In this document: positions 1,821 to 12,987 of the stretch, piece after piece | Layout of the letters: the number at the start of each line of letters is the position of its first letter | Numbering within the stretch: position 1 is the first letter of the stretch | Assembly (NCBI GenBank): GCA_946221495.1 | Contig: CAMIFA010000005.1 | Coordinates: 4,208-68,207 of the forward strand | DNA length: 64,000 nt | Reading direction: 5' to 3' | DNA from: an uncultured cyanobacterium | GTDB taxonomy: Bacteria; Cyanobacteriota; Cyanobacteriia; Cyanobacteriales; Chroococcidiopsidaceae | Made by a program: the position numbers and the translations under genes | The notes under the pieces: model-generated | Databases searched by the model: none | The model's input: the letters and a program-made list of their open reading frames with translations, nothing else | Told to the model about the DNA's origin: nothing

Positions 1821-3968
1821 TTATCCCTTGACACAAATAACTTGCTTGAGAGTTGCTACAACTTCAACTAAATCTGCTTGATTAGCCATGACTTGATCTA
1901 TTGGTTTATATGCGCCAGGAATTTCATCTAAAACTCCGCCATCTTTGCGGCATTCTACGCCTTTGGTTTGTTGAAGTAAATCATCTAAGGTGAACTTAAG
2001 CTTCGCCTTATTACGAGACATCAAACGCCCCGCACCATGCGAACAAGAGCAGTAACTTTCAGTATTGCCTTTACCCTTAACGATGAAAGATTTTGCTCCC
2101 ATCGAACCAGGAATAATGCCGTAGTCTTCAAGCCGCGCTCTTACTGCACCCTTACGAGTAACGTAGATATCTTCGCCAAAATGCGCTTCTTTTTCAGCAT
2201 AATTGTGATGACAGTTTACCTCTAATAAAGGCTTAGTCGGCTTACCACCAGCAAGATGCTTTTCAACTAGCCGCTTGAAACGAGCCATCATTACATCCCG
2301 ATTGAAACGCGCATAGTCTTGCGCCCACTGTAAGTCGTGCCAGTAGGCAGCAAACTGAGGCGTACCAGCTACAAAGTAAGCTAAGTCTGGATCTGGTAAA
2401 CGAATATCTGCCAGCTTTGCTAATTCTTTAGCAGTACCAATATGGCACTGAGCTAGCATATTCCCAATGTGACGTGAACCAGAGTGTAGCATCAGCCAAA
2501 CTTGATTCTCAGTATCAAGGCAAACTTCTAAAAAGTGGTTGCCCCCACCAAGTGATCCCATTTGGTTGATTGCCTTGCTTTCTAGGCGTTGTACTCCTGA
2601 ATGCAAGTCTTTAAAGTTACTCCATCTTTGCCAATTAGTAACAGCTTTTTCGACATTTTTGTTTTCATTGAATCCAGTCGGAATGGCGGCTTCAATGTCA
2701 AGACGAATCTGCTTTAGCTTACCTTCTAGTTGTTCGGCGATAAACGGGGTTTTTATGGCACTCATCCCACAGTTATGTACAAAAACACCTGCTTTTAAGG
2801 CAAAGTTATGATGCTCAGGCACAGTCAAACAATAAACATCCTCTTGATAGTCAAGAGCCACAACTTGCAATACTTTATGATTACATTTATGTTCATTTTT
2901 TTTGTGATTATGTAACCCTATGGGAGTTTTAATTTCAGCCCCACAAATATCACAGGTGTAGTATCTGTTAGCAATTTCTTTAGTTTTTGCTCTACCTTTT
3001 TCACTTTGGTTGTATGCAATTAAGTATTGTTTTCCTCGCTTACCATTATTTGCAACAGCTTGTTTAAAATGTTCAGGCTGTTCTTGCATATAGCGAAGAA
3101 TATTTTGAGTTCCACGCTCTGCGTAATATTTGTAGCCTTCTGGGGTTTGTGCTTTTTGGGCGATCGCATTTAATCGATGAAGCTCAAATTCCGGAGACTG
3201 AAAATACTGATTACGTTCTACCAGTGATTGGTGATAAGCTGAATGCTCTCTAGCACCCATAAACTCTAGGTTCTCAGGACGATTATCTGACTCTTCAAAG
3301 TTTTTGTGATGAATAACAGTTCTTTGATTCTTGAATGCGGGAACTTTGCCTAGTAAACCTGAGCGAGCTACAATCCAATGGGCTTTCTGCCATCTACTAG
3401 AGTAAGGCTGGACAATTAATGTGTAACCGTCTCTATCGACTTTGGAATAAAAGGGCATTAAAGAAGTCTCTGGTTGGAGATTTTGTGCTTCTTCATAAGT
3501 TCCATCTCTAAGTAGAAATTTGTGATCTGGAGTGCAGACAATCTCTTCACCATTGTCCAGAAATACCTTAACTAAATTTGCATTTTTTCTAGTTAATTTA
3601 GCTGTCGCTTTGGTTGCAACAATCTTGCTTGTAGCATTGCAAGCATAAACTATAAATTCTGCACTTTGATTAGCAAGTTCACTAATTTTGTAAAATTTTC
3701 CGTCTAGTAAGGGAACTAGAGTATCTCCTACAAAACAACCGACATCTACGCCGACAGCAGCTGGCATAATTGCTTCTTTCGTAGCAATTACAGAACCTAC
3801 CAAGGCTCCTTTACCCAAGTGAACATCTGGCATTAATGCTACGTGCTTAAACACAAATGGCAGAGAGGCAACATTTTTAGCCATCTTAGTTTCTTCGGAG
3901 CCAAGAGCATGATTCGCCCAAGAAAGCACCGGAGATAGTGCTGATATTTGTAGTTGTTCGTATGGCAT
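1821..3968 (-). CDS. rtcB: RNA-splicing ligase RtcB precursor containing an intein
   Basis: 715 aa. The exteins match E. coli RtcB nearly end to end (HVALMPDVHLGKGALVGSVIATKEAIMPAAVGVDVG ... CGMSAIK ... HSGSRHIGN ... SCSHGAGR ... VICVKG). The N-extein is 77 aa and the C-extein 316 aa, giving 393 aa like canonical RtcB. A 322-aa insertion separates them. Confidence 0.85.
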   Translation of the reverse strand: MPYEQLQISALSPVLSWANHALGSEETKMAKNVASLPFVFKHVALMPDVHLGKGALVGSVIATKEAIMPAAVGVDVGCFVGDTLVPLLDGKFYKISELANQSAEFIVYACNATSKIVATKATAKLTRKNANLVKVFLDNGEEIVCTPDHKFLLRDGTYEEAQNLQPETSLMPFYSKVDRDGYTLIVQPYSSRWQKAHWIVARSGLLGKVPAFKNQRTVIHHKNFEESDNRPENLEFMGAREHSAYHQSLVERNQYFQSPEFELHRLNAIAQKAQTPEGYKYYAERGTQNILRYMQEQPEHFKQAVANNGKRGKQYLIAYNQSEKGRAKTKEIANRYYTCDICGAEIKTPIGLHNHKKNEHKCNHKVLQVVALDYQEDVYCLTVPEHHNFALKAGVFVHNCGMSAIKTPFIAEQLEGKLKQIRLDIEAAIPTGFNENKNVEKAVTNWQRWSNFKDLHSGVQRLESKAINQMGSLGGGNHFLEVCLDTENQVWLMLHSGSRHIGNMLAQCHIGTAKELAKLADIRLPDPDLAYFVAGTPQFAAYWHDLQWAQDYARFNRDVMMARFKRLVEKHLAGGKPTKPLLEVNCHHNYAEKEAHFGEDIYVTRKGAVRARLEDYGIIPGSMGAKSFIVKGKGNTESYCSCSHGAGRLMSRNKAKLKFTLDDLLQQTKGVECRKDGGVLDEIPGAYKPIDQVMANQADLVEVVATLKQVICVKG
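2772..3737 (-). mobile_element. Intein inside rtcB, with an HNH-type homing endonuclease domain
   Basis: The intein begins CFVGDTLV (block A; Cys1 at nt 3737-3735) and ends VFVHN followed by +1 Cys (CGM). Internally TVIHHKNFEESDNRPENLEF...HSAYH is an HNH motif, and a Cys/His-rich segment CDICGAEIKTPIGLHNHKKNEHKCNHK follows. The insertion point is the conserved metal-ligand Cys of RtcB (GVD[V/I]G-CGM). Confidence 0.75.
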
Positions 3969-4190
3969 AATTTTTTACTTTGTGAATAGCAGTAATTAAC
4001 GTAATCGGTTTATATTACAAATATACTACAAAGTAATACGAAAGGCAAGTTGCTGAGTAATTGCGACAAGACTATCTAGGCATGATTTCAGCTCGTATAT
4101 TAAACTTTGTAAAGGAGGGGATATCAGCTTAGGTAGTCCCAACAGTGCAATCGCGTAGCGCTGCAATTAAATCAACTCAGGTAGACTCCT

Positions 4191-5051
4191 ATGGCACGTC
4201 AAGACACACTTTGGGAACGTTTCTTATCGCCCGTTGTTCGCTTGTTTATTGATGAGGAAGGGTTACGACGTTATTCTCAAAGTATTGATTGGCAGAAAGA
4301 AAGTAATCGCTTCCGGCGTGATATTCCAATTCCTGACTATTACAGTAGCCAGAACTTTCATGGCATTGAAGGCGGCTATCTCACCGCAGGTGCAGCAGTT
4401 TCCTACGATCCGATTACGCAGTATGTCTTGCCGCCGAATGAGACAATGGTACGCCAAGCCTTGATTGATTCTATTCAATGTCAGCCGAGGCGAATTTTAG
4501 ACTTAGGCTGCGGTACTGGTTCTACTACATTGATGTTAAAACAGGCTTTTCCCCAAGCTCAAGTAATTGGTTTAGACTTATCACCTTATATGCTGGTGAG
4601 GGCGGAAGACAAAGCAAAAACAGCTAATCTAGATATTCAATGGCATCATGGCGATGCTGAAAAAACTAAGTTTCCCGATCAATCTTTTGACTTAGTTACC
4701 GCTTCCTTGTTATTTCACGAAACACCACCAGCTGTATCTGAGGCAATTCTGCGTGAGAGTTTCCGATTGCTGACAAGTGGCGGAGAAGTCTTAATTTTAG
4801 ATGGCAATCAAAAAACATTGCGGCATCTGGAGTTTCTCAATAATGTATTTGAGGAGCCTTATATTCGTGACTATGCGGCGGGAAATATTGATGCTTGGAT
4901 GGGTAAAGCCGGATTTGAAGCAGTAGAGACTCAAGATTTTTGGCTGATCCAGCAAGTAACAAGGGGTGTTAAGCCACTACAGGATACAGGATACAAAAGG
5001 CAGCAGACAGAAGCTTTTAATGCTGATTGGATGCCAGCACCTAGTTATTAA
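4191..5051 (+). CDS. Class I SAM-dependent methyltransferase
   Basis: 286 aa. Motif I RILDLGCGTGSTT, acidic motif II VIGLDLS, motif III-like DLVTASLLFHE. Confidence 0.7.
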   Translation: MARQDTLWERFLSPVVRLFIDEEGLRRYSQSIDWQKESNRFRRDIPIPDYYSSQNFHGIEGGYLTAGAAVSYDPITQYVLPPNETMVRQALIDSIQCQPRRILDLGCGTGSTTLMLKQAFPQAQVIGLDLSPYMLVRAEDKAKTANLDIQWHHGDAEKTKFPDQSFDLVTASLLFHETPPAVSEAILRESFRLLTSGGEVLILDGNQKTLRHLEFLNNVFEEPYIRDYAAGNIDAWMGKAGFEAVETQDFWLIQQVTRGVKPLQDTGYKRQQTEAFNADWMPAPSY

Positions 5052-5062
5052 GGCGGCTAGGA

Positions 5063-5770
5063 ATGACTTTAAGAGCAGTTCTATTTGAGTACAACGGTGT
5101 GATCATTAATGATGACCTGATTCGCCAACAGATCATTGAGCAGATTTTGATTGAGGAGAATTTGCGTCCTCAACCAGGAGAGTTTAGGAAAGTTTGTCTA
5201 GGAAGAAGCGATCGCACTTGTCTTACTGATTTATTAAATCGCCGAGGTAGAGTTGTTAGCGAAAGTTATTTAAATCAACTGCTACAACGTAAGGCTGTGG
5301 CTTATCAACAGCAAATAGAAAAACAGGACGTAAAGTTTTACTCGGGCTTGGAAGATTTGCTTTTTCAACTGCAATCGCGATCGCTAAAATCAGCTATTGT
5401 AACTGGGGCGAGTTTTTCGGAAGTACAACTAGGATTGAATCGCGCTAATCTTGCTAAATACTTTCCCTTAGTTGTTGCTGGAGATCAAGTTAAAACTAGT
5501 AAACCAGAAATTGATGCTTATCTGCTGGTAGTGGAACGCTTAAATGAATTGTATCCTGATTTCAACCTCCAACTATCTCAATGTCTAGCCGTTGAAAGTA
5601 CCTTAGCTGGAATTCAAGGAGCTAAAAAAGCAGGTATGAAAGTGGTTGGAATCGCGAATATTTATCCATTTCATATGTTGCAGCGACAGGCAAACTGGAC
5701 AGTAGATTATCTGTGTGATTTAGATATGGATCGCGTACAGCAGCTATATACCCAAAAGCAAACAGCTTAA
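5063..5770 (+). CDS. HAD-superfamily hydrolase-like protein with non-canonical motif I
   Basis: 235 aa. HAD-like fold signatures: N-terminal VLFEYNGVII where the usual DxDG has become EYNG; K at motif III; GD...D near the C-terminus. Confidence 0.5.
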   Translation: MTLRAVLFEYNGVIINDDLIRQQIIEQILIEENLRPQPGEFRKVCLGRSDRTCLTDLLNRRGRVVSESYLNQLLQRKAVAYQQQIEKQDVKFYSGLEDLLFQLQSRSLKSAIVTGASFSEVQLGLNRANLAKYFPLVVAGDQVKTSKPEIDAYLLVVERLNELYPDFNLQLSQCLAVESTLAGIQGAKKAGMKVVGIANIYPFHMLQRQANWTVDYLCDLDMDRVQQLYTQKQTA

Positions 5771-5828
5771 AAGAGCAACTAATTGGCAGTGATATAATAA
5801 TTAAGCCCTGTTATTAGCAATACCTCAA

Positions 5829-5901
5829 GGGGAATTAGCTCAGTTGGTAGAGCGCTGCGATCGCACCGCAGAGGTCAGGGGTTCGAGTCTCCTATTCTCC
5901 A
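5829..5901 (+). tRNA. tRNA-Ala (anticodon CGC)
   Basis: Cloverleaf folded by hand. Acceptor GGGGAAT/ATTCTCC with the G3:U70 Ala identity pair. D-arm GCTC/GAGC. Anticodon stem CTGCG/CGCAG with loop AUCGCAC, anticodon CGC. T-arm AGGGG-TTCGAGT-CTCCT. Discriminator A. CCA not encoded. Confidence 0.85.
5843..5901 (+). repeat. attL: 59-bp direct repeat forming the 3' part of tRNA-Ala (identical copy at 12782..12840)
   Basis: GTTGGTAGAGCGCTGCGATCGCACCGCAGAGGTCAGGGGTTCGAGTCTCCTATTCTCCA occurs twice, 100% identical. The first copy sits inside the full tRNA. The second lacks the tRNA 5' half. Confidence 0.8.
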
Positions 5902-6046
5902 TAGCCCTAACGGGCTTTTACACCTTAAACCACCCTTAGCTGTCCTAAGTCTGTCCTAAGCATATCAGACACGGATCTAAGTCAGCTAGAGGTGTTTGTT
6001 AGTTATTCAGCGATCGCCGTTAGAAACTTAAATGGCTAGGGCGCTT

Positions 6047-6718
6047 CTAGGTTGTAGCTTTCTTAACGAAGTCGATCCAAGCTTCTAAGGGGGTCAGCAG
6101 ATGCCTTGGGACTGCGTAGCATAACTCGTTGCTGCTAACCTTGCCTTTCTGTCTTTGCCATGTGTCTGGTTCAGGTGCTACGAAAGCTTCGGATGTCTCT
6201 TGGTTTATCAGGATCAGTGCATCAACCTTAAACTTCTTCTCGTCCCACTTAGGACAGCAGCCAACTTGAACCATGTGGAACAAAAATGCTGATGGTTGTA
6301 AGGCTTTAACTTCTACAGATAACCGCTTAAACTTCCCAACCTTAACCATAACGTCACGCTGATAGCCCCTATACAATGATGCATCGTGGGCTGGGTTGCC
6401 AGCTCTCACCCTATATGTTGGATGCGGCTTGAAGTCTGGTCTATAAGGCACTCTAGCAAATGTTTGTATGCCTGTGTATTGTAGGTCACAATGAAGGACA
6501 TCCAACCACCCATTATCTAAAGCTTCCTTCCACCATGCCCTATCGGTTCTAAGCTTGTGGGCTCTAACAAAGCTTTGGCGGGGTCTATAGGATGGCAAAC
6601 CGTTAGCTGTCAAGTTGTCTGCTAATATGTCCTCCCATGCTTCACCTAGTTCTCGGTGATAGCCATCTGGGTTGGCTGTCCTAAGTTGACAGGCTGGAAT
6701 AGTGTGCGTTAGCATCAT
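6047..6718 (-). CDS. Hypothetical protein (island cargo)
   Basis: 223-aa ORF downstream of the VapE-like gene on the same strand. No motif recognised by eye. Confidence 0.4.
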   Translation of the reverse strand: MMLTHTIPACQLRTANPDGYHRELGEAWEDILADNLTANGLPSYRPRQSFVRAHKLRTDRAWWKEALDNGWLDVLHCDLQYTGIQTFARVPYRPDFKPHPTYRVRAGNPAHDASLYRGYQRDVMVKVGKFKRLSVEVKALQPSAFLFHMVQVGCCPKWDEKKFKVDALILINQETSEAFVAPEPDTWQRQKGKVSSNELCYAVPRHLLTPLEAWIDFVKKATT

Positions 6719-6924
6719 GATAGAAATATCCTTTGGTTATCCATAAAGCTCAATAGTTTGGACGCTAGGAGCCTCATGGGTTTACGTTTAGTGTCTATTT
6801 GCTTCTTAGTTGGTTCCTAAGAAGCAGATAGGTTATGCCGTAGGGTTAGTTGTCGCTAACTTTTTGGCTATTTATTAGGTTTGTTAGCCACTAGGTCTTG
6901 TTTGGTCTAGTGGCTTTGGCTTTA

Positions 6925-8352
6925 TTAGCTGAACGTCCTTGGTTGCCTACGGTTAGGGTCTGGGTTGCGTAACCTAGCGGACGTTACAATATCAACCATA
7001 TCTAAGCAAAACGGCGTGGGGTCTTCAACGTCTGGCTTGACATAGTGCCAACCGTTAAGCTTCTTGTTCCCAAAGCTCCTTCTGATGTAGCCTAAACTTG
7101 TAAAGGCTGCTTTTAGCTCGCGTTCGTGACGTTTAAGGTTTCCAGGGGCAATATTAAGGAAATATCGGGCGGCATCACAAGCTTTGATAGCGATAGGTTG
7201 GTCTTCTATATCTAATATCTCTAAAGCTGTTCTTAATGGTTCCTCTAATGGGTTTTCTGTTTGATAGGTTTTGTTAGCTCTTTCACTTAGTTCCTCCTCC
7301 TCTGGAGTTAACCACCAGTTCTTTTTAGCTAAATAGAGGTGATAAGCTACAGCCCAGATGCGATCGCGGTTAGCCTTAACCCAGCTAACAGGGATAATAT
7401 GATCGCCTGCGTCTATAACCCAAAAGCGACGAGAGCCTGTATTGTCATTTAAGAAGGCTGTCTCGTTGGTAGTTCCTGCAAAGACACAATGCCTTGGTCT
7501 GGGTGCGCCTAACTCTTTGTTGAGGTCTCTGAAGCTGTCATGAGTTTCAGTCAGGAAAGCTTTTAACGCTGAAATATCTTTAGCTCTAAAAGTGGCTTCC
7601 AGTTCTCCAAGTTCAGCGCCCCAACAGTTTTGGATGTTTCTTTGTTGTTCTAGTTGGCTTTGGCTGCTGTGGAGGGTTCTGAAGTGTTCCCCAAATAAGG
7701 CAGCAAGCAAGCTAGTTTTTCCGATGCCTTGTTTGCCTCGGATGACTAATGCGGTGTCCATTTTGCAACCAGGTTCTATCGCTCTAGCTACAGCCCCGAT
7801 CAGCCACCTTGTTAGCTTAACTTGAACCAAATGTTCAGAAGTGCCAAATAGCTTGTCAGCTAATGTAAGCCATTCTGCCCAGTCATTAGGAGTTAGCTTT
7901 GGGAGTCCTTTAAGATAGTTTTCTATAGGGTGGAAGGTGCGATATTTGACCATAGCGTCTAGTCGACGGTCTAAGAAGCTATGATGTAAAGGCAATGCTG
8001 TATCTAAGATATCTTCAAGTCTGTTTAGCATAGTGCCTATGTTGGTCTTGTTTATCGGGCTTATGGAGCCTAAAAAGATATCACCAGACCAAGCGTTAAC
8101 ATGGATGCTGTCTTTATATACAGCCTCGAATATTCGCCAGATCGTCAAGGGGTTATATTTGGTCTGTATCAGCCAAGTTTTAGCGTCATAACGTGCTTGT
8201 TTGATGTCTCTAGCATCCCTGTTGTCGTAGCTAGAACTGCCTAGCTCTGTCTTGGCTGTTGAGATGAAGTCGAGTCCAAGTCTACGGATGTCAGCTTGAA
8301 CCTGATCAGGTTTAACCTTTTGGTCGTCGTCGTCGTAAATGGAATAAGACAT
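6925..8352 (-). CDS. VapE/VirE-family P-loop NTPase (phage/plasmid primase-helicase C-terminal-domain-like replication protein)
   Basis: 475 aa. Walker A GKQGIGKTS and the family-typical D-x-TG-x-RRFW motif (DNTGSRRFWVIDAG), with an arginine-rich tail. Confidence 0.65.
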   Translation of the reverse strand: MSYSIYDDDDQKVKPDQVQADIRRLGLDFISTAKTELGSSSYDNRDARDIKQARYDAKTWLIQTKYNPLTIWRIFEAVYKDSIHVNAWSGDIFLGSISPINKTNIGTMLNRLEDILDTALPLHHSFLDRRLDAMVKYRTFHPIENYLKGLPKLTPNDWAEWLTLADKLFGTSEHLVQVKLTRWLIGAVARAIEPGCKMDTALVIRGKQGIGKTSLLAALFGEHFRTLHSSQSQLEQQRNIQNCWGAELGELEATFRAKDISALKAFLTETHDSFRDLNKELGAPRPRHCVFAGTTNETAFLNDNTGSRRFWVIDAGDHIIPVSWVKANRDRIWAVAYHLYLAKKNWWLTPEEEELSERANKTYQTENPLEEPLRTALEILDIEDQPIAIKACDAARYFLNIAPGNLKRHERELKAAFTSLGYIRRSFGNKKLNGWHYVKPDVEDPTPFCLDMVDIVTSARLRNPDPNRRQPRTFS

Positions 8353-8424
8353 ATTATTTATAGAATAGGTTTACATTTGCGCCATCAGGGTTGTCTTAGG
8401 ACTCTGGTGGCTTTGTCTTTGGGT

Positions 8425-8595
8425 CTAGATAACGTCTTGGGGCTGCTTAGGAACTGTAAAATATTGCCTTAAGGCAACCCTGATCACAGCAGATACAGAG
8501 CGATCGCTTAGTTCTGCTTCTGTCTGCACTGCCTCCATTAGCTCTAGGGGCAATAACAGAGGAAACCGAGCTTGGTTACGATGCATAGTCGCCAT
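8425..8595 (-). CDS. Small ribbon-helix-helix (CopG/Arc-like) DNA-binding protein; not in the ORF track (<60 aa)
   Basis: 56-aa ORF immediately upstream of, and co-oriented with, the VapE-like gene. Translation MATMHRNQARFPLLLPLELMEAVQTEAELSDRSVSAVIRVALRQYFTV has the RHH pattern (beta strand R-F-x-L-x-L, then two helices ending ...AL..YF). Confidence 0.5.
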   Translation of the reverse strand: MATMHRNQARFPLLLPLELMEAVQTEAELSDRSVSAVIRVALRQYFTVPKQPQDVI

Positions 8596-9020
8596 TTGAT
8601 GATGTGTCCTTGATGTCTAGTTGGTGTTCATATCTAAGTTGTCCTAAAGTGTCCTAAAGTCAGGTCTTAAGCTGCTCTAAGACCCCAAAGTTAGATATAG
8701 CAAGCAATACAGCTATTTAAGGGTTCTAACGTGATATCAAAAGTGATATCAGATGTGGTATTACACTATTTGAATGTTTTATGTTTATAAATATAATGAT
8801 AAGTTTTTTCTATAATATATTTGGGTTAGGCTTATGAAACTGTTAGGTGTCTTTAATGGCAGTTAGAACCTCGTCAGCTATTGAGGAACTTTAAGACCGC
8901 CTAAGAAGCCTAAGAACCAAGGGAGTTAAAAAAACACCCCCCAAAATGGATAGAACCTTATGCTGGTAAGGTTTCTAGGGGGGGCTGGGAAACATCCGGC
9001 TGGTTTGTAAGGTTTAGGCT

Positions 9021-9325
9021 CTCTAACACCCCTCTCCAACGTCTAAAGCTTATGGGATAAGCATTACAGCCATTCCTCTCCAACACTCTCCAACGTCTAA
9101 AGGGATGTTGGAGAGCATCTAAAGCCTTATCCTGTAAGCATCCTAGCCATTCCTCTCCAACCTCTCCAACCTTTTTTAAGAAATAAAGAATAAAGAATAG
9201 CTATAGGAGCCAACCAACTAAAATATGTTGGAGAGGTTGGAGAGGATCGACACAAACCTTGCTACATAGGGGTTTGAGGTTGGAGAGGGGTGTTGGAGAG
9301 TGTTGGAGAGGTTAGAGAGGATCTA
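9021..9325. repeat. Iteron array: about 6 direct CTCTCCAAC and about 7 inverted GTTGGAGAG copies
   Basis: Direct copies at approximately 9032, 9076, 9086, 9153 and 9163. Inverted copies at approximately 9107, 9227, 9236, 9280, 9293, 9303 and 9312. Longer repeats CCTCTCCAACGTCTAAAG and CATCTAAAG are also present. An AT-rich tract lies at 8760-8830. The array sits in a 1.1-kb non-coding gap next to the replication-protein operon. Confidence 0.7.
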
Positions 9326-9454
9326 GCAATGCCCTAAGCCTGCCTCGACACTTACGGATATCCAAGGATACAATAGCAGATAATATAACACTGTTTTTTA
9401 AAATGCCTAAGTGTGTATTAGAAAACCCACGATAACCAACTATAGAGAAATATT

Positions 9455-9769
9455 ATGTTAGTTCAAATGGCGAAAGGCACTCTTTTAGTGACTAAGCTAG
9501 TCATAAACACTTGGACAGGTGAAGCGTTTGTCTTTGGTCTGCCAGAGCATATGCTGTGTCCTACAGGACAATACATGGACGCATCGGATGGTTCCTGTAA
9601 CACAGGTTTTTATAACAGGGTTGGCGAAGTTCGTATCCCCACTGAAGTTGACTTTGACGGCGATGGTGCGGCGGATACAGTCTTTCTATACGATCCTGAG
9701 AATGACACTTGGGTTGATATGGCTGAAAATGACCCGTGCAAAGGTTACGAGGATGACCCGACCTGCTGA
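9455..9769 (+). CDS. Hypothetical acidic Cys-containing small protein (island cargo)
   Basis: 104 aa with an acidic C-terminus DFDGDGAADTVFLYDPENDTWVDMAENDPCKGYEDDPTC. The overlapping alternative frame 9519..9794 is less protein-like. Confidence 0.3.
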   Translation: MLVQMAKGTLLVTKLVINTWTGEAFVFGLPEHMLCPTGQYMDASDGSCNTGFYNRVGEVRIPTEVDFDGDGAADTVFLYDPENDTWVDMAENDPCKGYEDDPTC

Positions 9770-9974
9770 TGGTCTTAGGAAGCCAAAGCCCTAACGATGC
9801 CAGACTTAGACCCCCCTGTTGATGCCATATAAGCAGACAGGGGTTTTTACATATTCACTTGTAGGCAACACAAGGGGGCTTGGATGCCTGAAGATGGACA
9901 AGCGATGTATGCTGAGTTATCATTAAGACACTTGATCAGGAGAACGATCATACAAGCCAACGGGACTATCACTA

Positions 9975-10127
9975 ATGGCAACTAAATATCAACTAAGGTT
10001 GACTGAAGACCAACACCAAGCATTTACAGAAACCGCTAAAAGTCTAGGTTTATCTCTGGCTGACTTTCTAAGACTTGCAGCGATCGAGAAGGTTGAACAG
10101 GTGCGGAAGGATCGCAAGTCTGCATAA
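9975..10127 (+). CDS. Small RHH/CopG-like protein (50 aa; not in the ORF track)
   Basis: MATKYQLRLTEDQHQAFTETAKSLGLSLADFLRLAAIEKVEQVRKDRKSA: an L-R-L-T beta strand followed by two helices, the classic ribbon-helix-helix layout. ATG at 9975, stop TAA at 10125-10127. Confidence 0.45.
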   Translation: MATKYQLRLTEDQHQAFTETAKSLGLSLADFLRLAAIEKVEQVRKDRKSA

Positions 10128-10297
10128 TAGCTCCCTAGAATAGCTGATAAGTTATTGTTATAGCTGCATGGAGCTACATAAACCATCTGTATGTATCCTG
10201 CTATTTAAAGAGATGGACAAACAATGGATACGGAGTTATAATAGAAACATCAAAAGGCAAATAACTCTACACAACGCCTCCAAAAAGACTTAAGACC

Positions 10298-10864
10298 ATG
10301 AACTACAAAGACTATCAGAACGCCCTAAAGAACCTACGTAATGACGGCTACGATGTCCAAGTCAAACTCAACAGCAAGCTAGAGGTTCTTAAGGTTGAAT
10401 ATGATCGCCTGATGACCGTCCCAGAGCATTTACAGCAACTAGAACCTCTGACGGCTGATGAGTTTAACGAGATGGTTTACGGCATATCACCTGTAGAAGC
10501 TATAGCAACCCCTTCCGAGACTTCCAAGAGTCTAGAACCCTTACAGGCTATAGCAGAAACCAATATCGCCTTAAAACCTGTAGAAGTCCTAGAACCCTTA
10601 CAGGCAAATGATGAAACGTATTTCGCCAAGTCAACCAAGGACTATTGGATAGACAGGACTGGGGTATCAAGTCAGCTAGAGATAACGCAAGTCCAAGCGT
10701 TTAGGAACCTCCAAGATGGGTGGCGATCCCTCAAGCAACTAGGCAGAAACCTACAAAGCTTTAAGAAGGGTTTTGATGATCGTCTGAAGCAACTAGAGGC
10801 ATCTAAGAAGCCCAAAACTAATAATGTCGTCCAGATGCCTTTAAGGATGCCCCAAGCTGCTTAA
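10298..10864 (+). CDS. Hypothetical protein (island cargo)
   Basis: 188 aa with an internal near-repeat SLEPLQAIAETNIALKPVEVLEPLQANDE. No recognised domain. Confidence 0.4.
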   Translation: MNYKDYQNALKNLRNDGYDVQVKLNSKLEVLKVEYDRLMTVPEHLQQLEPLTADEFNEMVYGISPVEAIATPSETSKSLEPLQAIAETNIALKPVEVLEPLQANDETYFAKSTKDYWIDRTGVSSQLEITQVQAFRNLQDGWRSLKQLGRNLQSFKKGFDDRLKQLEASKKPKTNNVVQMPLRMPQAA

Positions 10865-11014
10865 GGAGTTTCGATAGCCCCCCTTGGCTATCTGAGAGAA
10901 CCTGTCAGACGGGTTGTAAACCACCAATGCTCTAAAGAACACGGATAGACCTGAGAACGTCTCTAAACTTCTCAATGTCCCAACTAAGTCCCTAAAAAAA
11001 TAAAGCTAGAAACT

Positions 11015-11275
11015 ATGTTTATTGATATTCCTGAAGGCTTGCGTATAGCTCTGTATGTAACGCTTATCAATGAGGATGTTCTAAATGGAACTTACAGCGA
11101 CCTCAGATCCGCTCTAAAAGCTAAAAACTGGTTCCTGTATGAATATCGGCAAATGGTGAGAGACGCTAGACGGGCTGGATATGCGGTGGAGTCTTTAGAC
11201 ACTCAAGGTGATCTGAGAGCCAGACGGACAAGACTTGAAACTCTATATCAGGGGGTCTTAGCAAAAAACTGTTAA
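11015..11275 (+). CDS. Hypothetical small protein (island cargo)
   Basis: 86-aa ORF in the co-oriented block preceding the integrase. Confidence 0.35.
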   Translation: MFIDIPEGLRIALYVTLINEDVLNGTYSDLRSALKAKNWFLYEYRQMVRDARRAGYAVESLDTQGDLRARRTRLETLYQGVLAKNC

Positions 11276-11366
11276 GCACAAAATATGGATAGGACATCTT
11301 AAGGGCATCAAGAACCCATGTCAACAGACCCGACGTTAAACATTCTTTAGAAACCATCAATACAAA

Positions 11367-11564
11367 ATGTCTCAAAGTCTTGCAGATAAACAAAAGAATA
11401 GCCCCCTGCAACAACTGAAGCGGTCTAGGGCAAATGCTAGAAGACATAAGGTTATTCTGAGGTTTCTAGAGAAAGTCAGAGATAACCCCGATATGTCCCC
11501 AGAACAAAAACGAGAAGTTGCCATCAAAGTTAGGGAACTTCTCGAACAACTAGAGACGGCGTAG
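11367..11564 (+). CDS. Hypothetical small basic protein (possible excisionase/regulator)
   Basis: 65 aa, basic and helical (KRSRANARRHKVILRFLEKVRDN). It sits just upstream of the convergent integrase. Confidence 0.3.
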   Translation: MSQSLADKQKNSPLQQLKRSRANARRHKVILRFLEKVRDNPDMSPEQKREVAIKVRELLEQLETA

Positions 11565-11625
11565 AGATATAGAAGAACTCATTATCAAACTACAGCCCCC
11601 TCAGAATGACTAAGGGGGCTTTGGC

Positions 11626-12714
11626 TTACACAGGCATCTTAGGCAAACTAGGACGGTTAACTATATGTCCGTAGGTTTGGATAACCATCCTAGTGTTCTT
11701 ATGACCTGCTAGATAGGCTACACCAGTTAGAGAAGTGCCTTGCTCTACAGCATAACTTAGTGTCGTATGCCGGATAGCGTGTAGCTTTCTATAAGGGATG
11801 TCACAAGCTGCTAAAACTTTAACCCAGTGCCTCTCACGGAAGTTATCAGCGTCAATAACACAACCCTTAACCGTAGTGAAGACTAGGCACTCAGGTTTAA
11901 CCTCTGAGGGTCTAAGGGTTAACAACAAGCTTCTAAGTTCTGGACTAAGTGTTAAATGCCTGACACTGCCTGTTTTAGTTTCTTTCCGTATCCTTTGATA
12001 GCCGTTGCCTGTAACATCTTTGGATAAGGACTCGCTTATCGTCAACTCATTACGCTTAAAGTCTATACGGTTCCACCTAAGCCCTATGGCTTCAGATATT
12101 CTAACTCCAGTCAGAAATAAGAACCTAACAAACGGGACATAATGAGGCGCTTGATCTTCAAAACCTTTGACTATCAAAGCCGTCTCGCTTATGCTAAATG
12201 GCTTAACCTCCTTAAAGGGCTTCTTACGAGACTTAAGGCTTTCAAATGAGTTGACCAAGCCTTGTTTAGCAGCCCATTTGCCAAAAGACTTAAGATAACT
12301 TAGGCGATCATTGTAGGTTACAGCAGCGAGAGGAGCTTGAGTAAACCATGTTGTATCTGTAAGGCTTGGGTTAGCCTTGAGGATCATTCGCCTAACCCAT
12401 TCGTAGTGATCTGCCTTAGTTGCTGCTGAGAGGTCTAAGGTGTTAACCCAAAGATCCCAAAGCTCTAACAAGTTATTAGGCTTAGTTAACTCAGGCGTTG
12501 TCTTAGGTGCTAGTCGATATTTCTGTAGTGTCGGATCAAGACACCCCGCTAGGATGTCGTTCTGTATTTTAACCGCGATCGCTTTAGCTGTCTGTAGGTC
12601 TCTTTTGTTGCTGTAGTCACCACCTGGAATAGGGTTAAAGCTGTATCGTTTGCTTCCGTAACTAAACTTAAGTTGTATAGATCCGTTGTTGTTAAAAGGC
12701 TTTATTTCTCTCAT
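11626..12714 (-). CDS. int: Tyrosine-type site-specific integrase/recombinase
   Basis: 362 aa. Catalytic signature R (LTGVRISEA) ... K ... H-x-x-R (HAIRHT) ... H (AGHKN) ... Y (IQTYGH). The start codon is 68 bp from attR. Confidence 0.85.
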   Translation of the reverse strand: MREIKPFNNNGSIQLKFSYGSKRYSFNPIPGGDYSNKRDLQTAKAIAVKIQNDILAGCLDPTLQKYRLAPKTTPELTKPNNLLELWDLWVNTLDLSAATKADHYEWVRRMILKANPSLTDTTWFTQAPLAAVTYNDRLSYLKSFGKWAAKQGLVNSFESLKSRKKPFKEVKPFSISETALIVKGFEDQAPHYVPFVRFLFLTGVRISEAIGLRWNRIDFKRNELTISESLSKDVTGNGYQRIRKETKTGSVRHLTLSPELRSLLLTLRPSEVKPECLVFTTVKGCVIDADNFRERHWVKVLAACDIPYRKLHAIRHTTLSYAVEQGTSLTGVAYLAGHKNTRMVIQTYGHIVNRPSLPKMPV

Positions 12715-12781
12715 CAGTCCTAGACCTGTCCTAAAGAAATATCCTTAGAACAGCTAGATGGCTCTACATTAGTTCTTTGAG

Positions 12782-12840
12782 GTTGGTAGAGCGCTGCGAT
12801 CGCACCGCAGAGGTCAGGGGTTCGAGTCTCCTATTCTCCA
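12782..12840 (+). repeat. attR: partial tRNA-Ala 3' copy, second copy of the 59-bp direct repeat
   Basis: Identical to 5843..5901. It lies 68 bp from the integrase start codon. No 5' acceptor/D-stem precedes it, so it is not a functional tRNA. Confidence 0.8.
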
Positions 12841-12987
12841 TTCGATAGAACCCTGTGATTAAGAGGGTTTTGTCATCGTATAGAGCAAATTTCAGCGTCC
12901 CATTCTTAATAAGTAACTTCAGACTAGAGGAGATTTCTGTAAATAGTTTATTACGTACCGGAGCAAGCTTCCCTTTTGTTATTCAAT

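What the first reader, a model, noticed from the sequence alone, without database searches (positions are those of the whole stretch)
5829..12840. Candidate phage-satellite / integrated-plasmid-like island (about 6.9 kb) in tRNA-Ala(CGC), bounded by a perfect 59-bp direct repeat
Seen in sequence: the 3' 59 nt of tRNA-Ala (5843-5901) reappear at 12782-12840. A tyrosine integrase starts 68 bp inside the right-hand copy. The cargo is minimal: a VapE/VirE-type P-loop primase-helicase-like protein preceded by a 56-aa RHH gene; a second RHH ORF; an iteron array plus an AT-rich tract; and 5-6 small hypothetical ORFs. There are no capsid, tail or terminase genes. Integrase plus VapE-like replication module plus small regulators in under 10 kb is the architecture of PICI/P4-like phage satellites and of small integrative replicons. 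Such elements are essentially uncharacterised in cyanobacteria. The att core includes the HIP1 octamer GCGATCGC.
Basis: partly seen in the sequence, partly recalled or inferred. Interest (0 to 1): 0.75.

Follow-up and report, generated by a model that had tools for sequence, protein, structure and literature searches.

The report
Small self-replicating island in tRNA-Ala
A 6.9-kb mobile element sits in a cyanobacterial tRNA-Ala gene and carries its own integrase, a SaPI-type replication helicase with its origin, and a resolvase-like nuclease; a sister strain lacks it exactly, so it is a real but fairly ordinary kind of mobile island whose link to a phage is unproven.

Summary
tRNA-Ala(CGC) lies at 5829-5901, and its last 59 nt plus one base (60 nt, 5843-5902) recur perfectly at 12782-12841. 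A sister strain (98.4% identical flank) has the tRNA joined directly to the 12842+ flank with one copy of the 60 nt. This is a precise empty site.

The 6,879 bp between the repeats encode nine genes:
- an intact tyrosine integrase;
- a 475-aa VapE protein homologous over its whole length to SaPI1 Rep, a self-loading initiator-helicase;
- an RHH gene just upstream of it;
- a 223-aa Hjc-like PD-(D/E)xK nuclease;
- a second RHH protein;
- four orphan proteins.

Thirteen 9-bp iterons (CTCTCCAAC) form two inverted sets around a 75% AT spacer, as in a SaPI origin.

Relatives in other filamentous cyanobacteria share Int, VapE and nuclease. They have their own iterons and sit in tRNA-Ala, Asp, Val, Cys or Thr genes.

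No primase, capsid, terminase or relaxase gene is detectable. It is therefore an integrative, self-replicating element of the tycheposon / SaPI-replicon kind. Satellite status is possible but unshown.

The parts
5829..5901 (+). tRNA-Ala(CGC), the integration target. It is complete in the occupied site.
   Evidence: ARAGORN. The same tRNA is followed directly by the right flank in the empty-site contig L003.
5843..5902 (+). attL: left copy of the perfect 60-nt direct repeat (tRNA positions 15-73 plus 1 nt). It includes the anticodon stem-loop.
5941..5959 (+). Pair of TGTCCTAA motifs 11 bp apart, 39 nt inside attL. Putative arm-type integrase sites.
   Evidence: 7 of the 9 window copies lie in the island, and no shuffle reached 9. 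The GTCCTAA core of the motif sits beside the att ends in relatives that use other tRNAs. Protein binding is inferred.
6047..6718 (-). 223-aa Hjc-like PD-(D/E)xK nuclease, a conserved core gene of the family.
6925..8352 (-). 475-aa VapE-family initiator-helicase, a homologue of SaPI Rep. N-terminal domain of unknown role, P-loop ATPase core at 163-364, and a helix/beta-hairpin C-terminal domain.
   Evidence: PF05272 E 6e-61. Family profile against PDB 7PDS (SaPI1 Rep1, deposited as 'Similar to D. nodosus vapE') E 3.9e-43. Foldseek to 7PDS E 1.8e-17 over about 445 columns. AF2 pLDDT 82.
8425..8595 (-). 56-aa ribbon-helix-helix protein, first gene of the RHH-VapE-nuclease string. Putative CopG-like autoregulator.
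   Evidence: PF01402 E 2e-6 and Arc-like repressor PHROG. 72% identical homologue in the same position in L168. An RHH gene also precedes VapE in L010. The regulatory role is inferred.
8640..8657 (+). Second pair of TGTCCTAA motifs, 10 bp apart, 45-60 nt upstream of the RHH56 start.
   Evidence: Function unknown (operator, or an integrase site coupling excision and replication); inferred.
8735..8830 (.). AT-rich tract (78% AT). It contains the most AT-rich 60-mers of the island (up to 87% AT).
9019..9319 (.). Putative origin of replication. Six CTCTC[C/T]AAC iterons on the + strand (plus one reversed at 9107), a 75% AT spacer at 9171-9226, then six iterons on the - strand.
   Evidence: Relatives have the same geometry with different 9-mers: L168 CTCTCCATG/CTCTCTATG, L171 CCCCATCAT, L004 TAACCATC. 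It matches the SaPI ori description in PMC9371898. Origin activity is inferred.
9455..9769 (+). 104-aa protein of unknown function.
   Evidence: ORF. 38% identical homologue at the same position in L168. Only a sub-threshold Kelch hit.
9975..10127 (+). 50-aa ribbon-helix-helix protein (NikA-like / RelB-like / MobA-like by weak profile hits).
   Evidence: PF21983 at 30 bits against a cut-off of 27. NCBIfam hits all fall below their cut-offs. 82% identical homologue in L168.
10298..10864 (+). 188-aa orphan protein with internal LEPLQA repeats.
   Evidence: 41 representatives among 1.84 billion proteins and no consistent Pfam domain. 46% identical homologue in L168.
11015..11275 (+). 86-aa orphan protein.
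   Evidence: ORF. 45% identical homologue in L168.
11367..11564 (+). 65-aa basic helical orphan protein, convergent with int. An excisionase role is a guess.
   Evidence: ORF. 38% identical homologue in L168, at a different position.
11626..12714 (-). 362-aa tyrosine integrase.
   Evidence: PF00589 and PHROG_1. Motifs expected to hold the catalytic R205, H312/R315, H338 and Y348 are present. 57-71% identical integrases lie in related tRNA-bounded elements.
12716..12734 (+). AGTCCTAG and TGTCCTAA motifs 48-66 nt inside attR. Putative arm-type sites.
   Evidence: (D12).
12782..12841 (+). attR: right copy of the 60-nt repeat (displaced 3' tRNA fragment).
   Evidence: In L003 the single copy is joined to 12842-12943 at 99.4% identity.

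Best explanation
This is a 6.9-kb integrative, self-replicating mobile element inserted in the tRNA-Ala(CGC) gene of a filamentous-type cyanobacterium. It belongs to a small family whose core is integrase + RHH + VapE/Rep + Hjc-like nuclease.

Proposed working:
1. The tyrosine integrase recombines a 60-nt attP that copies tRNA positions 15-73 with the chromosomal tRNA. The crossover is probably at the anticodon stem-loop, helped by GTCCTAA arm sites on both sides. The tRNA is restored and a 3' fragment is left at the far end. The reverse reaction gives a circle and a clean attB.
2. In the circle, the VapE protein acts like SaPI Rep. It reads the element-specific 9-bp iterons, presumably through its C-terminal domain. 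It assembles over the two inverted iteron sets, opens the AT-rich centre and loads itself as the replicative helicase. Priming and synthesis are left to host enzymes, or to a co-infecting phage, because the element has no primase or polymerase.
3. The RHH gene at the head of the rep string acts as a CopG-like autorepressor. The second RHH controls the rightward genes.
4. The Hjc-like nuclease resolves branched or multimeric replication products.
5. Cell-to-cell transfer needs outside help and is not settled: a phage capsid, a vesicle, or free DNA.

Shown: element boundaries, mobility (empty site), gene identities and folds, origin-like architecture, family conservation.
Inferred: every biochemical step.
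For: Boundaries and mobility:
- tRNA and perfect 60-nt repeats.
- Contig L003 from a 98.4%-identical strain carries one copy of the 60 nt joining 5902 to 12842.
- The orthologous tRNA-Ala(CGC) locus of Scytonema hofmanni UTEX 2349 (same methyltransferase and HAD flank) holds a different element of the family: Int 63%, VapE 29%, nuclease 36% identity, 51-nt repeat.
- Other relatives are bounded by fragments of tRNA-Ala(GGC), Cys, Val, Thr, Trp and Asp.

Integrase:
- Conserved active-site motifs all present.
- GTCCTAA motifs lie next to the att ends in the window and in most relatives, whatever the target tRNA.

Replicon:
- PF05272 E 6e-61.
- Family profile against SaPI1 Rep1 (7PDS) E 3.9e-43.
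- Full-length structural match, E 1.8e-17.
- 13 iterons in two inverted sets around a 75% AT spacer.
- Same geometry with different 9-mers in L168, L171 and L004. Arrays lie just downstream of VapE in L010 and L007.
- SaPI Rep is described as a self-loading helicase whose winged-helix CTD reads iterons placed on both sides of an AT-rich region in opposite directions (PMC9371898).
- The C-terminal part of the family is poorly conserved compared with the ATPase core, as expected of a specificity domain.

Genes are real: all nine proteins have homologues (38-82% identity) in element L168; eight are in the same order and only the p65 homologue is moved.
Against: - No circular form or attP junction was seen: 0 hits in JGI metagenomes. 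The Logan contigs break inside the repeat and cannot tell integrated from excised DNA.
- No primase, so autonomous replication is not guaranteed.
- No recognisable excisionase.
- The iterons could instead be operator or centromere-like sites for the RHH proteins.
- The window array lies about 420 bp upstream of the rep string rather than immediately downstream of rep as in SaPIs.
- The promoter/terminator scan is not enriched over shuffles.
- The transfer route is unknown.
Confidence: 0.78

Rival explanations
1. It is a true phage satellite (PICI / VEIME-like). It stays silent in the tRNA until a helper cyanophage infects, then excises and replicates with its Rep. It is packaged, probably as headful concatemers, into helper capsids without encoding any capsid or terminase gene. 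The Hjc-like nuclease would process the concatemers.
For: - The closest solved relative of the replication protein is the Rep of satellite SaPI1, and the origin geometry is that of SaPIs.
- Marine VEIMEs are described as integrase plus primase/helicase elements without capsid genes that fill capsids as concatemers. 'COG5545 ATPase' is listed among their 20 most common gene annotations (PMC9618062); from my own knowledge COG5545 is the VirE/VapE-type P-loop ATPase family.
- PICI-like tycheposons exist in picocyanobacteria.
- The element has no means of transfer of its own.
Against: - No terS, capsid, scaffold, Ppi/Cpm-like, Sid/Psu-like or AlpA-like protein is found by Pfam, PHROGs or NCBIfam.
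- No DNA similarity to 50,697 phage records, so no shared cos or pac stretch is visible.
- No close VapE relative and no nuclease-family member in IMG/VR.
- VapE proteins are also present on Nostoc and Microcystis plasmids, including a 3.1-kb record. The module is therefore not satellite-specific.
Confidence: 0.28
2. It is an integrative mobilizable element. The 50-aa NikA/MobA-like RHH protein is a relaxosome accessory factor that marks an oriT. A conjugative element elsewhere in the cell supplies the relaxase and the pore.
For: - RHH50 reaches the Pfam NikA-like threshold (30 bits against 27).
- It gives weak MobA and MbpA hits.
- RHH genes with NikA-like hits recur in relatives.
Against: - No relaxase or coupling protein is present.
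- The gene after the RHH is a 188-aa orphan with no Pfam match to any relaxase family; its few representatives give no consistent domain.
- RHH profiles cross-hit widely: the same protein also hits RelB, TacA and CopG.
- All NCBIfam mobilization hits are far below their cut-offs.
Confidence: 0.07
3. It is a decaying remnant of a prophage or plasmid, fixed in this lineage and no longer mobile. The strain without it lost it by recombination between the repeats.
For: - No excisionase or primase is recognisable.
- Some relatives are clearly degraded: the VapE reading frame is split in L006 and L082, and the integrase in L005.
Against: - The 60-nt repeats are perfect.
- All nine ORFs are intact and each has a conserved homologue in L168.
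- The integrase active-site motifs are complete.
- The same tRNA locus holds a different family member in another genus.
- There is no trace of phage structural genes.
Confidence: 0.07

Closest known systems
SaPI / PICI replication module (SaPI1 Rep1, PDB 7PDS; SaPI ori)
   Same: - The VapE-family initiator-helicase is homologous by sequence profile (E 3.9e-43).
- It matches structurally over the whole length.
- The origin is made of short iterons in two opposite sets around an AT-rich centre.
- The element is integrated by a tyrosine integrase.
   Different: - No primase gene (SaPIs have pri, or a Pri-Rep fusion).
- No Stl-type repressor was recognised.
- No terS or capsid-remodelling operon.
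- 6.9 kb instead of about 15 kb.
- Iterons of 9 bp rather than 5-6 bp, lying upstream of the rep string.
- The host is a cyanobacterium.
- An Hjc-like nuclease is a core gene.
Tycheposons of Prochlorococcus and marine Synechococcus (bioRxiv 10.1101/2020.12.28.424599)
   Same: - Cyanobacterial elements bounded by partial tRNAs.
- A tyrosine recombinase plus a small replication module that can include a VirE-type helicase, regulators and endonucleases.
- Most lack packaging genes.
   Different: - Tycheposons are defined as one gene-sharing group with a largely monophyletic integrase clade. That was not tested here.
- tblastn with this integrase found no hit in the Prochlorococcus and Synechococcus VapE loci fetched.
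- VapE identity to those loci is only 30-37% over the ATPase core.
- The host is a HIP1-rich, filamentous-type cyanobacterium.
- The element carries no recognisable metabolic cargo.
VEIMEs, virion-encapsidated integrative mobile elements (PMC9618062)
   Same: - Small integrase plus primase/helicase elements without capsid genes.
- Many orphan genes.
   Different: VEIMEs are defined by recovery from virus particles as concatemers. There is no such evidence here, and no family member is found in IMG/VR.
P4-like satellites
   Same: Integrase at a tRNA gene, and one large replication protein with its own origin.
   Different: - The P4 alpha protein has a primase domain fused to the helicase. None is present here.
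- No Sid, Psu, Delta or Cox-like proteins and no cos site were detected.
pRN-type plasmids and pSSVx/pSSVi of Sulfolobus; pMV158 CopG-RepB control (from my own knowledge of these systems)
   Same: - A small RHH copy-control gene sits directly upstream of, and is co-directional with, the replication gene.
- Some are integrative and some are virus satellites.
   Different: - They are archaeal or Gram-positive.
- Their replication proteins belong to other families (PrimPol-SF3 or rolling-circle RepB).
- There is no sequence relationship beyond the fold level.

Membership tests
tRNA-integrating island moved by a tyrosine recombinase | Intact tyrosine recombinase with conserved active-site motifs | tested here: met
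   PF00589 and PHROG_1. The motifs expected to hold R205, H312/R315, H338 and Y348 are present.
tRNA-integrating island moved by a tyrosine recombinase | Direct repeats made of a tRNA segment at both ends | tested here: met
   Perfect 60-nt repeat, 5843-5902 and 12782-12841.
tRNA-integrating island moved by a tyrosine recombinase | Empty site in a related genome with a single att copy | tested here: met
   L003: left flank 98.4% identical, right flank 99.4% identical, one 60-nt copy.
tRNA-integrating island moved by a tyrosine recombinase | Excised circular form (attP) | tested here: inconclusive
   The exact attP junction pattern gave 0 hits in JGI metagenomes. Raw reads of the host could not be searched.
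VapE / SaPI Rep family of initiator-helicases | VapE-like P-loop domain | tested here: met
   PF05272 E 6e-61. The Walker A motif GKQGIGKTS is conserved in the family.
VapE / SaPI Rep family of initiator-helicases | Homology to a characterised Rep over N-terminal, ATPase and C-terminal domains | tested here: met
   Profile against 7PDS E 3.9e-43, covering positions 53-324. Foldseek gives about 445 aligned columns, TM 0.55, E 1.8e-17.
VapE / SaPI Rep family of initiator-helicases | Cognate origin of iterons in opposite orientation around an AT-rich region | tested here: met
   Conserved geometry with element-specific 9-mers in relatives.
VapE / SaPI Rep family of initiator-helicases | Iteron binding, origin melting and helicase activity | not testable with these tools
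   Needs biochemistry.
PICI / SaPI phage satellites | Packaging or capsid-hijack genes (terS, capsid morphogenesis, interference) | tested here: not met
   No such hit for any of the nine proteins in Pfam, PHROGs or NCBIfam.
PICI / SaPI phage satellites | Primase accompanying Rep | tested here: not met
   No primase domain anywhere in the island. Longer VapE relatives do carry PF09250, PF12965 or PF13362.
PICI / SaPI phage satellites | Induction by, and transfer in particles of, a helper phage | not testable with these tools
   Indirect checks were negative: no DNA match to phages and the family is absent from IMG/VR.
P4-like satellites | Alpha-type primase-helicase, Sid/Psu/Delta, cos site | tested here: not met
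   No such domains or phage DNA matches.
Tycheposons | Site-specific recombinase at a tRNA plus a replication hallmark gene, without capsid or conjugation genes | tested here: met
   Definition taken.
Tycheposons | Integrase inside the tycheposon clade and shared hallmark gene pool | tested here: inconclusive
   No phylogeny was run. This integrase has no tblastn hit in the picocyanobacterial VapE loci. VapE identity there is 30-37% over the core.
Integrative mobilizable elements | Relaxase and oriT | tested here: not met
   No relaxase family hit. Only a generic RHH with a NikA-like score just above the cut-off.
Hjc-like PD-(D/E)xK nucleases (223-aa protein) | Restriction-endonuclease-like fold with an E...D...ExK active site | tested here: met
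Hjc-like PD-(D/E)xK nucleases (223-aa protein) | Cleavage of four-way junctions | not testable with these tools

The most novel reading that the evidence does not exclude
The element and its relatives are an undescribed family of minimal (5.5-10 kb), capsid-gene-free phage satellites of filamentous cyanobacteria. They would replicate with a primase-less SaPI-type Rep that borrows the helper's or host's primase. They would use a dedicated Hjc-like resolvase to cut their concatemers for headful packaging. The GTCCTAA sites found both at the att arms and at the rep promoter would couple excision to replication.
Probability: 0.2. Interest if true: 0.7.

Novelty: new member of a known kind. Interest (0 to 1): 0.42.

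Why it matters
Mobile elements of filamentous, often nitrogen-fixing or symbiotic cyanobacteria are poorly mapped. Genetic tools for these organisms are limited to a few replicons.

This window gives a fully delimited element with an empty-site control and a compact replicon of about 2.5 kb: RHH, Rep and a defined iteron origin. It also gives a set of relatives whose iterons differ, a ready system for studying initiator-origin specificity outside staphylococci.

The integrases offer site-specific integration into defined tRNA genes (Ala, Asp, Val, Cys, Thr). The replicon could serve as a base for new shuttle or integrative vectors.

If helper phages are involved, this would extend satellites to a phylum branch where none has been characterised. 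As it stands, it is an ordinary example of a known class of element, well supported but not surprising.

Tried and rejected
- A single-protein scan of genome contigs with the VapE protein found nothing. The alignment-based scan worked.
- The attP junction search in JGI metagenomes gave 0 hits.
- The nuclease family scan of metagenome contigs and of IMG/VR gave 0 confirmed relatives.
- The IMG/VR scan with the VapE family gave only distant relatives, at most 38% identity over the ATPase core.
- Plasmid and phage collections gave only distant VapE proteins and no DNA match.
- PADLOC found no defence system. NCBIfam added nothing for the orphans.
- The 188-aa orphan has 41 representatives in 1.84 billion proteins and no consistent domain. 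It is not a detectable paralogue of the 86-aa protein.
- Terminal overlaps that would show circular contigs were absent in L168, L170, L172, L173 and L174.
- The promoter/terminator scan was not enriched over shuffles.

Rejected readings:
- Chance repeat.
- Ancestral region. It is contradicted by the empty site and by a different element at the same locus in another genus.
- 'Primase-helicase'. No primase domain is present.
- Partition site reading of the iterons. There is no ParA, and in relatives the arrays track the rep gene.
- The HIP1 octamer as a meaningful att feature. It is simply the tRNA's anticodon arm.

Full report
**Observation**

ARAGORN places tRNA-Ala(CGC) at 5829-5901 on the + strand. 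The repeat finder returns a perfect 60-nt direct repeat, 5843-5902 and 12782-12841. The 'HIP1 octamer' GCGATCGC is just tRNA positions 29-36.

The region between the repeats is 6,879 bp and about 44% G+C, against 35-40% in the right flank.

**Mobility**

The flanking HAD-hydrolase protein was looked up by exact sequence. It recovered three things: the same occupied locus in an ENA assembly (L001), contigs of run SRR1950782 that are 100% identical to the window, and a contig of another run (L003, SRR12205386).

- L003 positions 1-2372 match window 3532-5902 at 98.4% identity.
- L003 positions 2313-2474 match window 12782-12943 at 99.4% identity.
- The two matches overlap by exactly one copy of the 60 nt.

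The SRR1950782 contigs break in the middle of the repeat. That is what a k-mer graph does at a repeat, and it says nothing about circular forms.

**Genes**

Nine ORFs fill the island.

Leftward:
- RHH56 (8425-8595; PF01402).
- A 475-aa VapE-family protein (6925-8352; PF05272 E 6e-61).
- A 223-aa protein without any family hit (6047-6718).

Rightward:
- p104.
- RHH50 (NikA-like, 30 bits against a cut-off of 27).
- p188, p86 and p65.

Leftward again, at the far end:
- The integrase (11626-12714; PF00589, PHROG_1).

The integrase carries all the conserved active-site motifs (TGVRISE, HAIRHT, GHKN, TYGH). NCBIfam and PADLOC add nothing. No protein resembles a capsid, tail, terminase, primase, polymerase or relaxase.

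**The replication protein**

The protein database gives a family of full-length (455-490 aa) cyanobacterial homologues at 38-66% identity. Named sources are Trichocoleus, Coleofasciculaceae and a 'Cyanobacteria bacterium' bin. More distant VapE proteins are longer and carry PrimPol, DUF3854 or Toprim domains, which this protein lacks.

- A profile of the family hits one PDB sequence, 7PDS, at E 3.9e-43.
- The AlphaFold model (pLDDT 82) matches the same entry over about 445 columns at E 1.8e-17. It ranks ahead of the SF3 helicases of phage NrS-1, ASFV and poxviruses.
- 7PDS is Rep1 of the phage satellite SaPI1.

The paper describing 7PDS (PMC9371898) calls SaPI Reps self-loading helicases. Their C-terminal winged-helix domain reads short iterons. 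The iterons lie on both sides of an AT-rich region and point in opposite directions.

In the model, residues about 387-438 form a helix/beta-hairpin unit at the equivalent place. In the family alignment this part is far less conserved than the ATPase core, as a specificity domain should be.

**The origin**

- CTCTCCAAC occurs 11 times exactly, and twice with one mismatch, in 9019-9319. It occurs once exactly in the other 63.7 kb.
- Six copies point rightward (plus one reversed), then comes a 56-bp spacer of 75% AT (9171-9226), then six copies point leftward.
- A second tract of 78% AT lies at 8735-8830.

Relatives have the same design with other words:
- L168: CTCTCCATG / CTCTCTATG around an A/T run.
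- L171: CCCCATCAT.
- L004: TAACCATC.
- All of these are 9-bp units in two inverted sets upstream of the RHH-VapE string.
- L010 and L007 have arrays just downstream of VapE, as in SaPIs.

Element-specific iterons that travel with the rep gene are the signature of an initiator-origin pair. They do not fit a generic regulatory site.

**The 223-aa protein**

- It has only 22 homologues among 5.8 billion proteins, several on contigs of the same length as those carrying VapE homologues.
- The gene is seen directly beside VapE or the integrase in L004, L005, L007, L010, L168, L169/L170 and L171.
- E29, D122 and E136-V-K138 are invariant, which is the PD-(D/E)xK active site.

I read it as a structure-specific nuclease that resolves branched or multimeric replication products. 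A homing or restriction-like role is not excluded.

**The family**

A scan of one genome per species with the VapE alignment returned 80 loci. Searching them with the island proteins shows integrase + VapE + nuclease together in L004, L005, L007 and L010. It also shows 57-63% identical integrases next to 29-34% identical VapE proteins in Anabaena lutea, Nostoc CHAB 5824, Scytonema hofmanni and N. punctiforme NIES-2108.

Many of these loci are bounded by a tRNA and a repeat of part of it:
- Ala(GGC), 7.9 kb.
- Cys, 7.1 kb.
- Val, 10.1 kb.
- Ala(CGC), 8.7 kb.
- Thr, 6.6 and 12.4 kb.
- Trp, 5.4 kb.

Three relatives deserve mention.
- L168 has homologues of all nine window proteins: Int 71%, p86 45%, p188 46%, RHH50 82%, p104 38%, RHH56 72%, VapE 58%, nuclease 53% and p65 38% identity. 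Eight are in the same order; the p65 homologue lies after the nuclease gene. L168 starts in a tRNA-Asp repeat.
- L169/L170 is a 5.7-kb minimal version with only integrase, a few tiny ORFs, VapE and the nuclease.
- L010 is the orthologous tRNA-Ala(CGC) locus of Scytonema hofmanni UTEX 2349. Its methyltransferase is 80% and its HAD protein 54% identical to those of the window, and it is occupied by a different member of the family.

The orphan genes are therefore real. The core is Int, RHH, VapE and nuclease. The same att site has been used independently.

**Arm sites**

TGTCCTAA occurs nine times in the window, seven of them in the island; no shuffle reached nine.
- One pair lies 39 nt inside attL.
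- One exact plus one degenerate copy lie 48-66 nt inside attR.
- One pair lies 45-60 nt upstream of RHH56.

Copies of its GTCCTAA core lie next to the element ends in L168, L170, L171, L005, L004, L036 and L010, whatever the target tRNA. The simplest reading is that these are arm-type sites for the conserved N-terminal part of the integrases. The pair at the rep promoter is unexplained.

In the circular form, RHH56, VapE, the nuclease, attP and int would lie in one direction on one strand. This might couple replication and integrase expression (inference only).

**What it is not shown to be**

Nothing satellite-specific was found.
- No packaging or interference gene.
- No DNA match to any phage record.
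- No close VapE relative and no nuclease-family member in IMG/VR.
- No attP junction in JGI metagenomes.

VapE proteins also occur on Nostoc and Microcystis plasmids, including a 3.1-kb record. The module therefore serves plasmids as well as satellites.

The NikA-like score of RHH50 is the only hint of conjugative mobilisation. It is a generic RHH signal, and no relaxase is present.

**Comparison with what is known**

Tycheposons of Prochlorococcus are tRNA-bounded elements with tyrosine recombinases. Their small replication modules include VirE-type helicases, regulators and endonucleases. Most have no packaging genes, and they are found in both vesicles and capsids.

VEIMEs are integrase plus primase/helicase elements without capsid genes, packaged as concatemers.

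The present element works like these and replicates like a SaPI. Membership in the tycheposon clade was not tested by phylogeny. The integrase shows no tblastn similarity in the picocyanobacterial loci fetched.

The four full-text searches run returned no paper describing this family in filamentous cyanobacteria.

**Verdict**

It is unproven about the phage, and wrong in implying a primase and a blank field.

I file it as a new member of a known kind of element, with moderate interest. It offers a clean, experimentally tractable replicon and integrase set for filamentous cyanobacteria, and a roughly one-in-four to one-in-five chance of being a minimal satellite.

Noticed in passing
window about 1821-3968 (-): The RtcB RNA ligase gene left of the island encodes a 715-aa product with an intein-splicing domain inserted between two RtcB halves, according to the gene calls of the identical contig L001.
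   Followed up: no
L010:8430-17175 (Scytonema hofmanni UTEX 2349): The orthologous tRNA-Ala(CGC) locus (same methyltransferase and HAD neighbours) holds a different 8.7-kb element: Int 63%, VapE 29%, nuclease 36% identity, a 51-nt repeat, and GAGGCTATCATTT iterons just downstream of VapE.
   Followed up: partly
L009:4897-15117 (Nostoc sp. CHAB 5824): The 51-nt repeat covers the 5' 46 nt of tRNA-Val plus 5 upstream bases, and the complete tRNA lies at the integrase end. This relative's attP therefore carries the 5' half of the tRNA rather than the usual 3' half.
   Followed up: partly
L036:3234-15726 (Nostoc punctiforme NIES-2108): A 12.4-kb relative bounded by a 96-nt repeat at tRNA-Thr carries two integrase genes in tandem (58% and 53% identical to the window integrase). 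This may be two elements inserted one after the other.
   Followed up: no
L076:3470-20273 (Synechococcus MAG): A 16.7-kb island bounded by tRNA-Thr carries an 828-aa VapE protein, a UvrD-like helicase and a protein with a large-terminase hit. It looks like a PICI-like tycheposon or a small prophage.
   Followed up: partly
window 8640-8657: The putative integrase arm-site motif TGTCCTAA also occurs as a tandem pair just upstream of the RHH-VapE string, far from either att end. No explanation was tested.
   Followed up: partly
window 10480-10627: The 188-aa orphan gene contains imperfect tandem DNA repeats that encode repeated LEPLQA-type segments (D7 and D11). Its homologues differ in length, 174-322 aa for most.
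   Followed up: no
L006:1918-4626 (Chlorogloea sp. CCALA 695): Another tRNA-Ala(CGC) is followed by a VapE gene that is 46% identical but broken into three ORFs. This is a decaying family member at the same kind of site.
   Followed up: no
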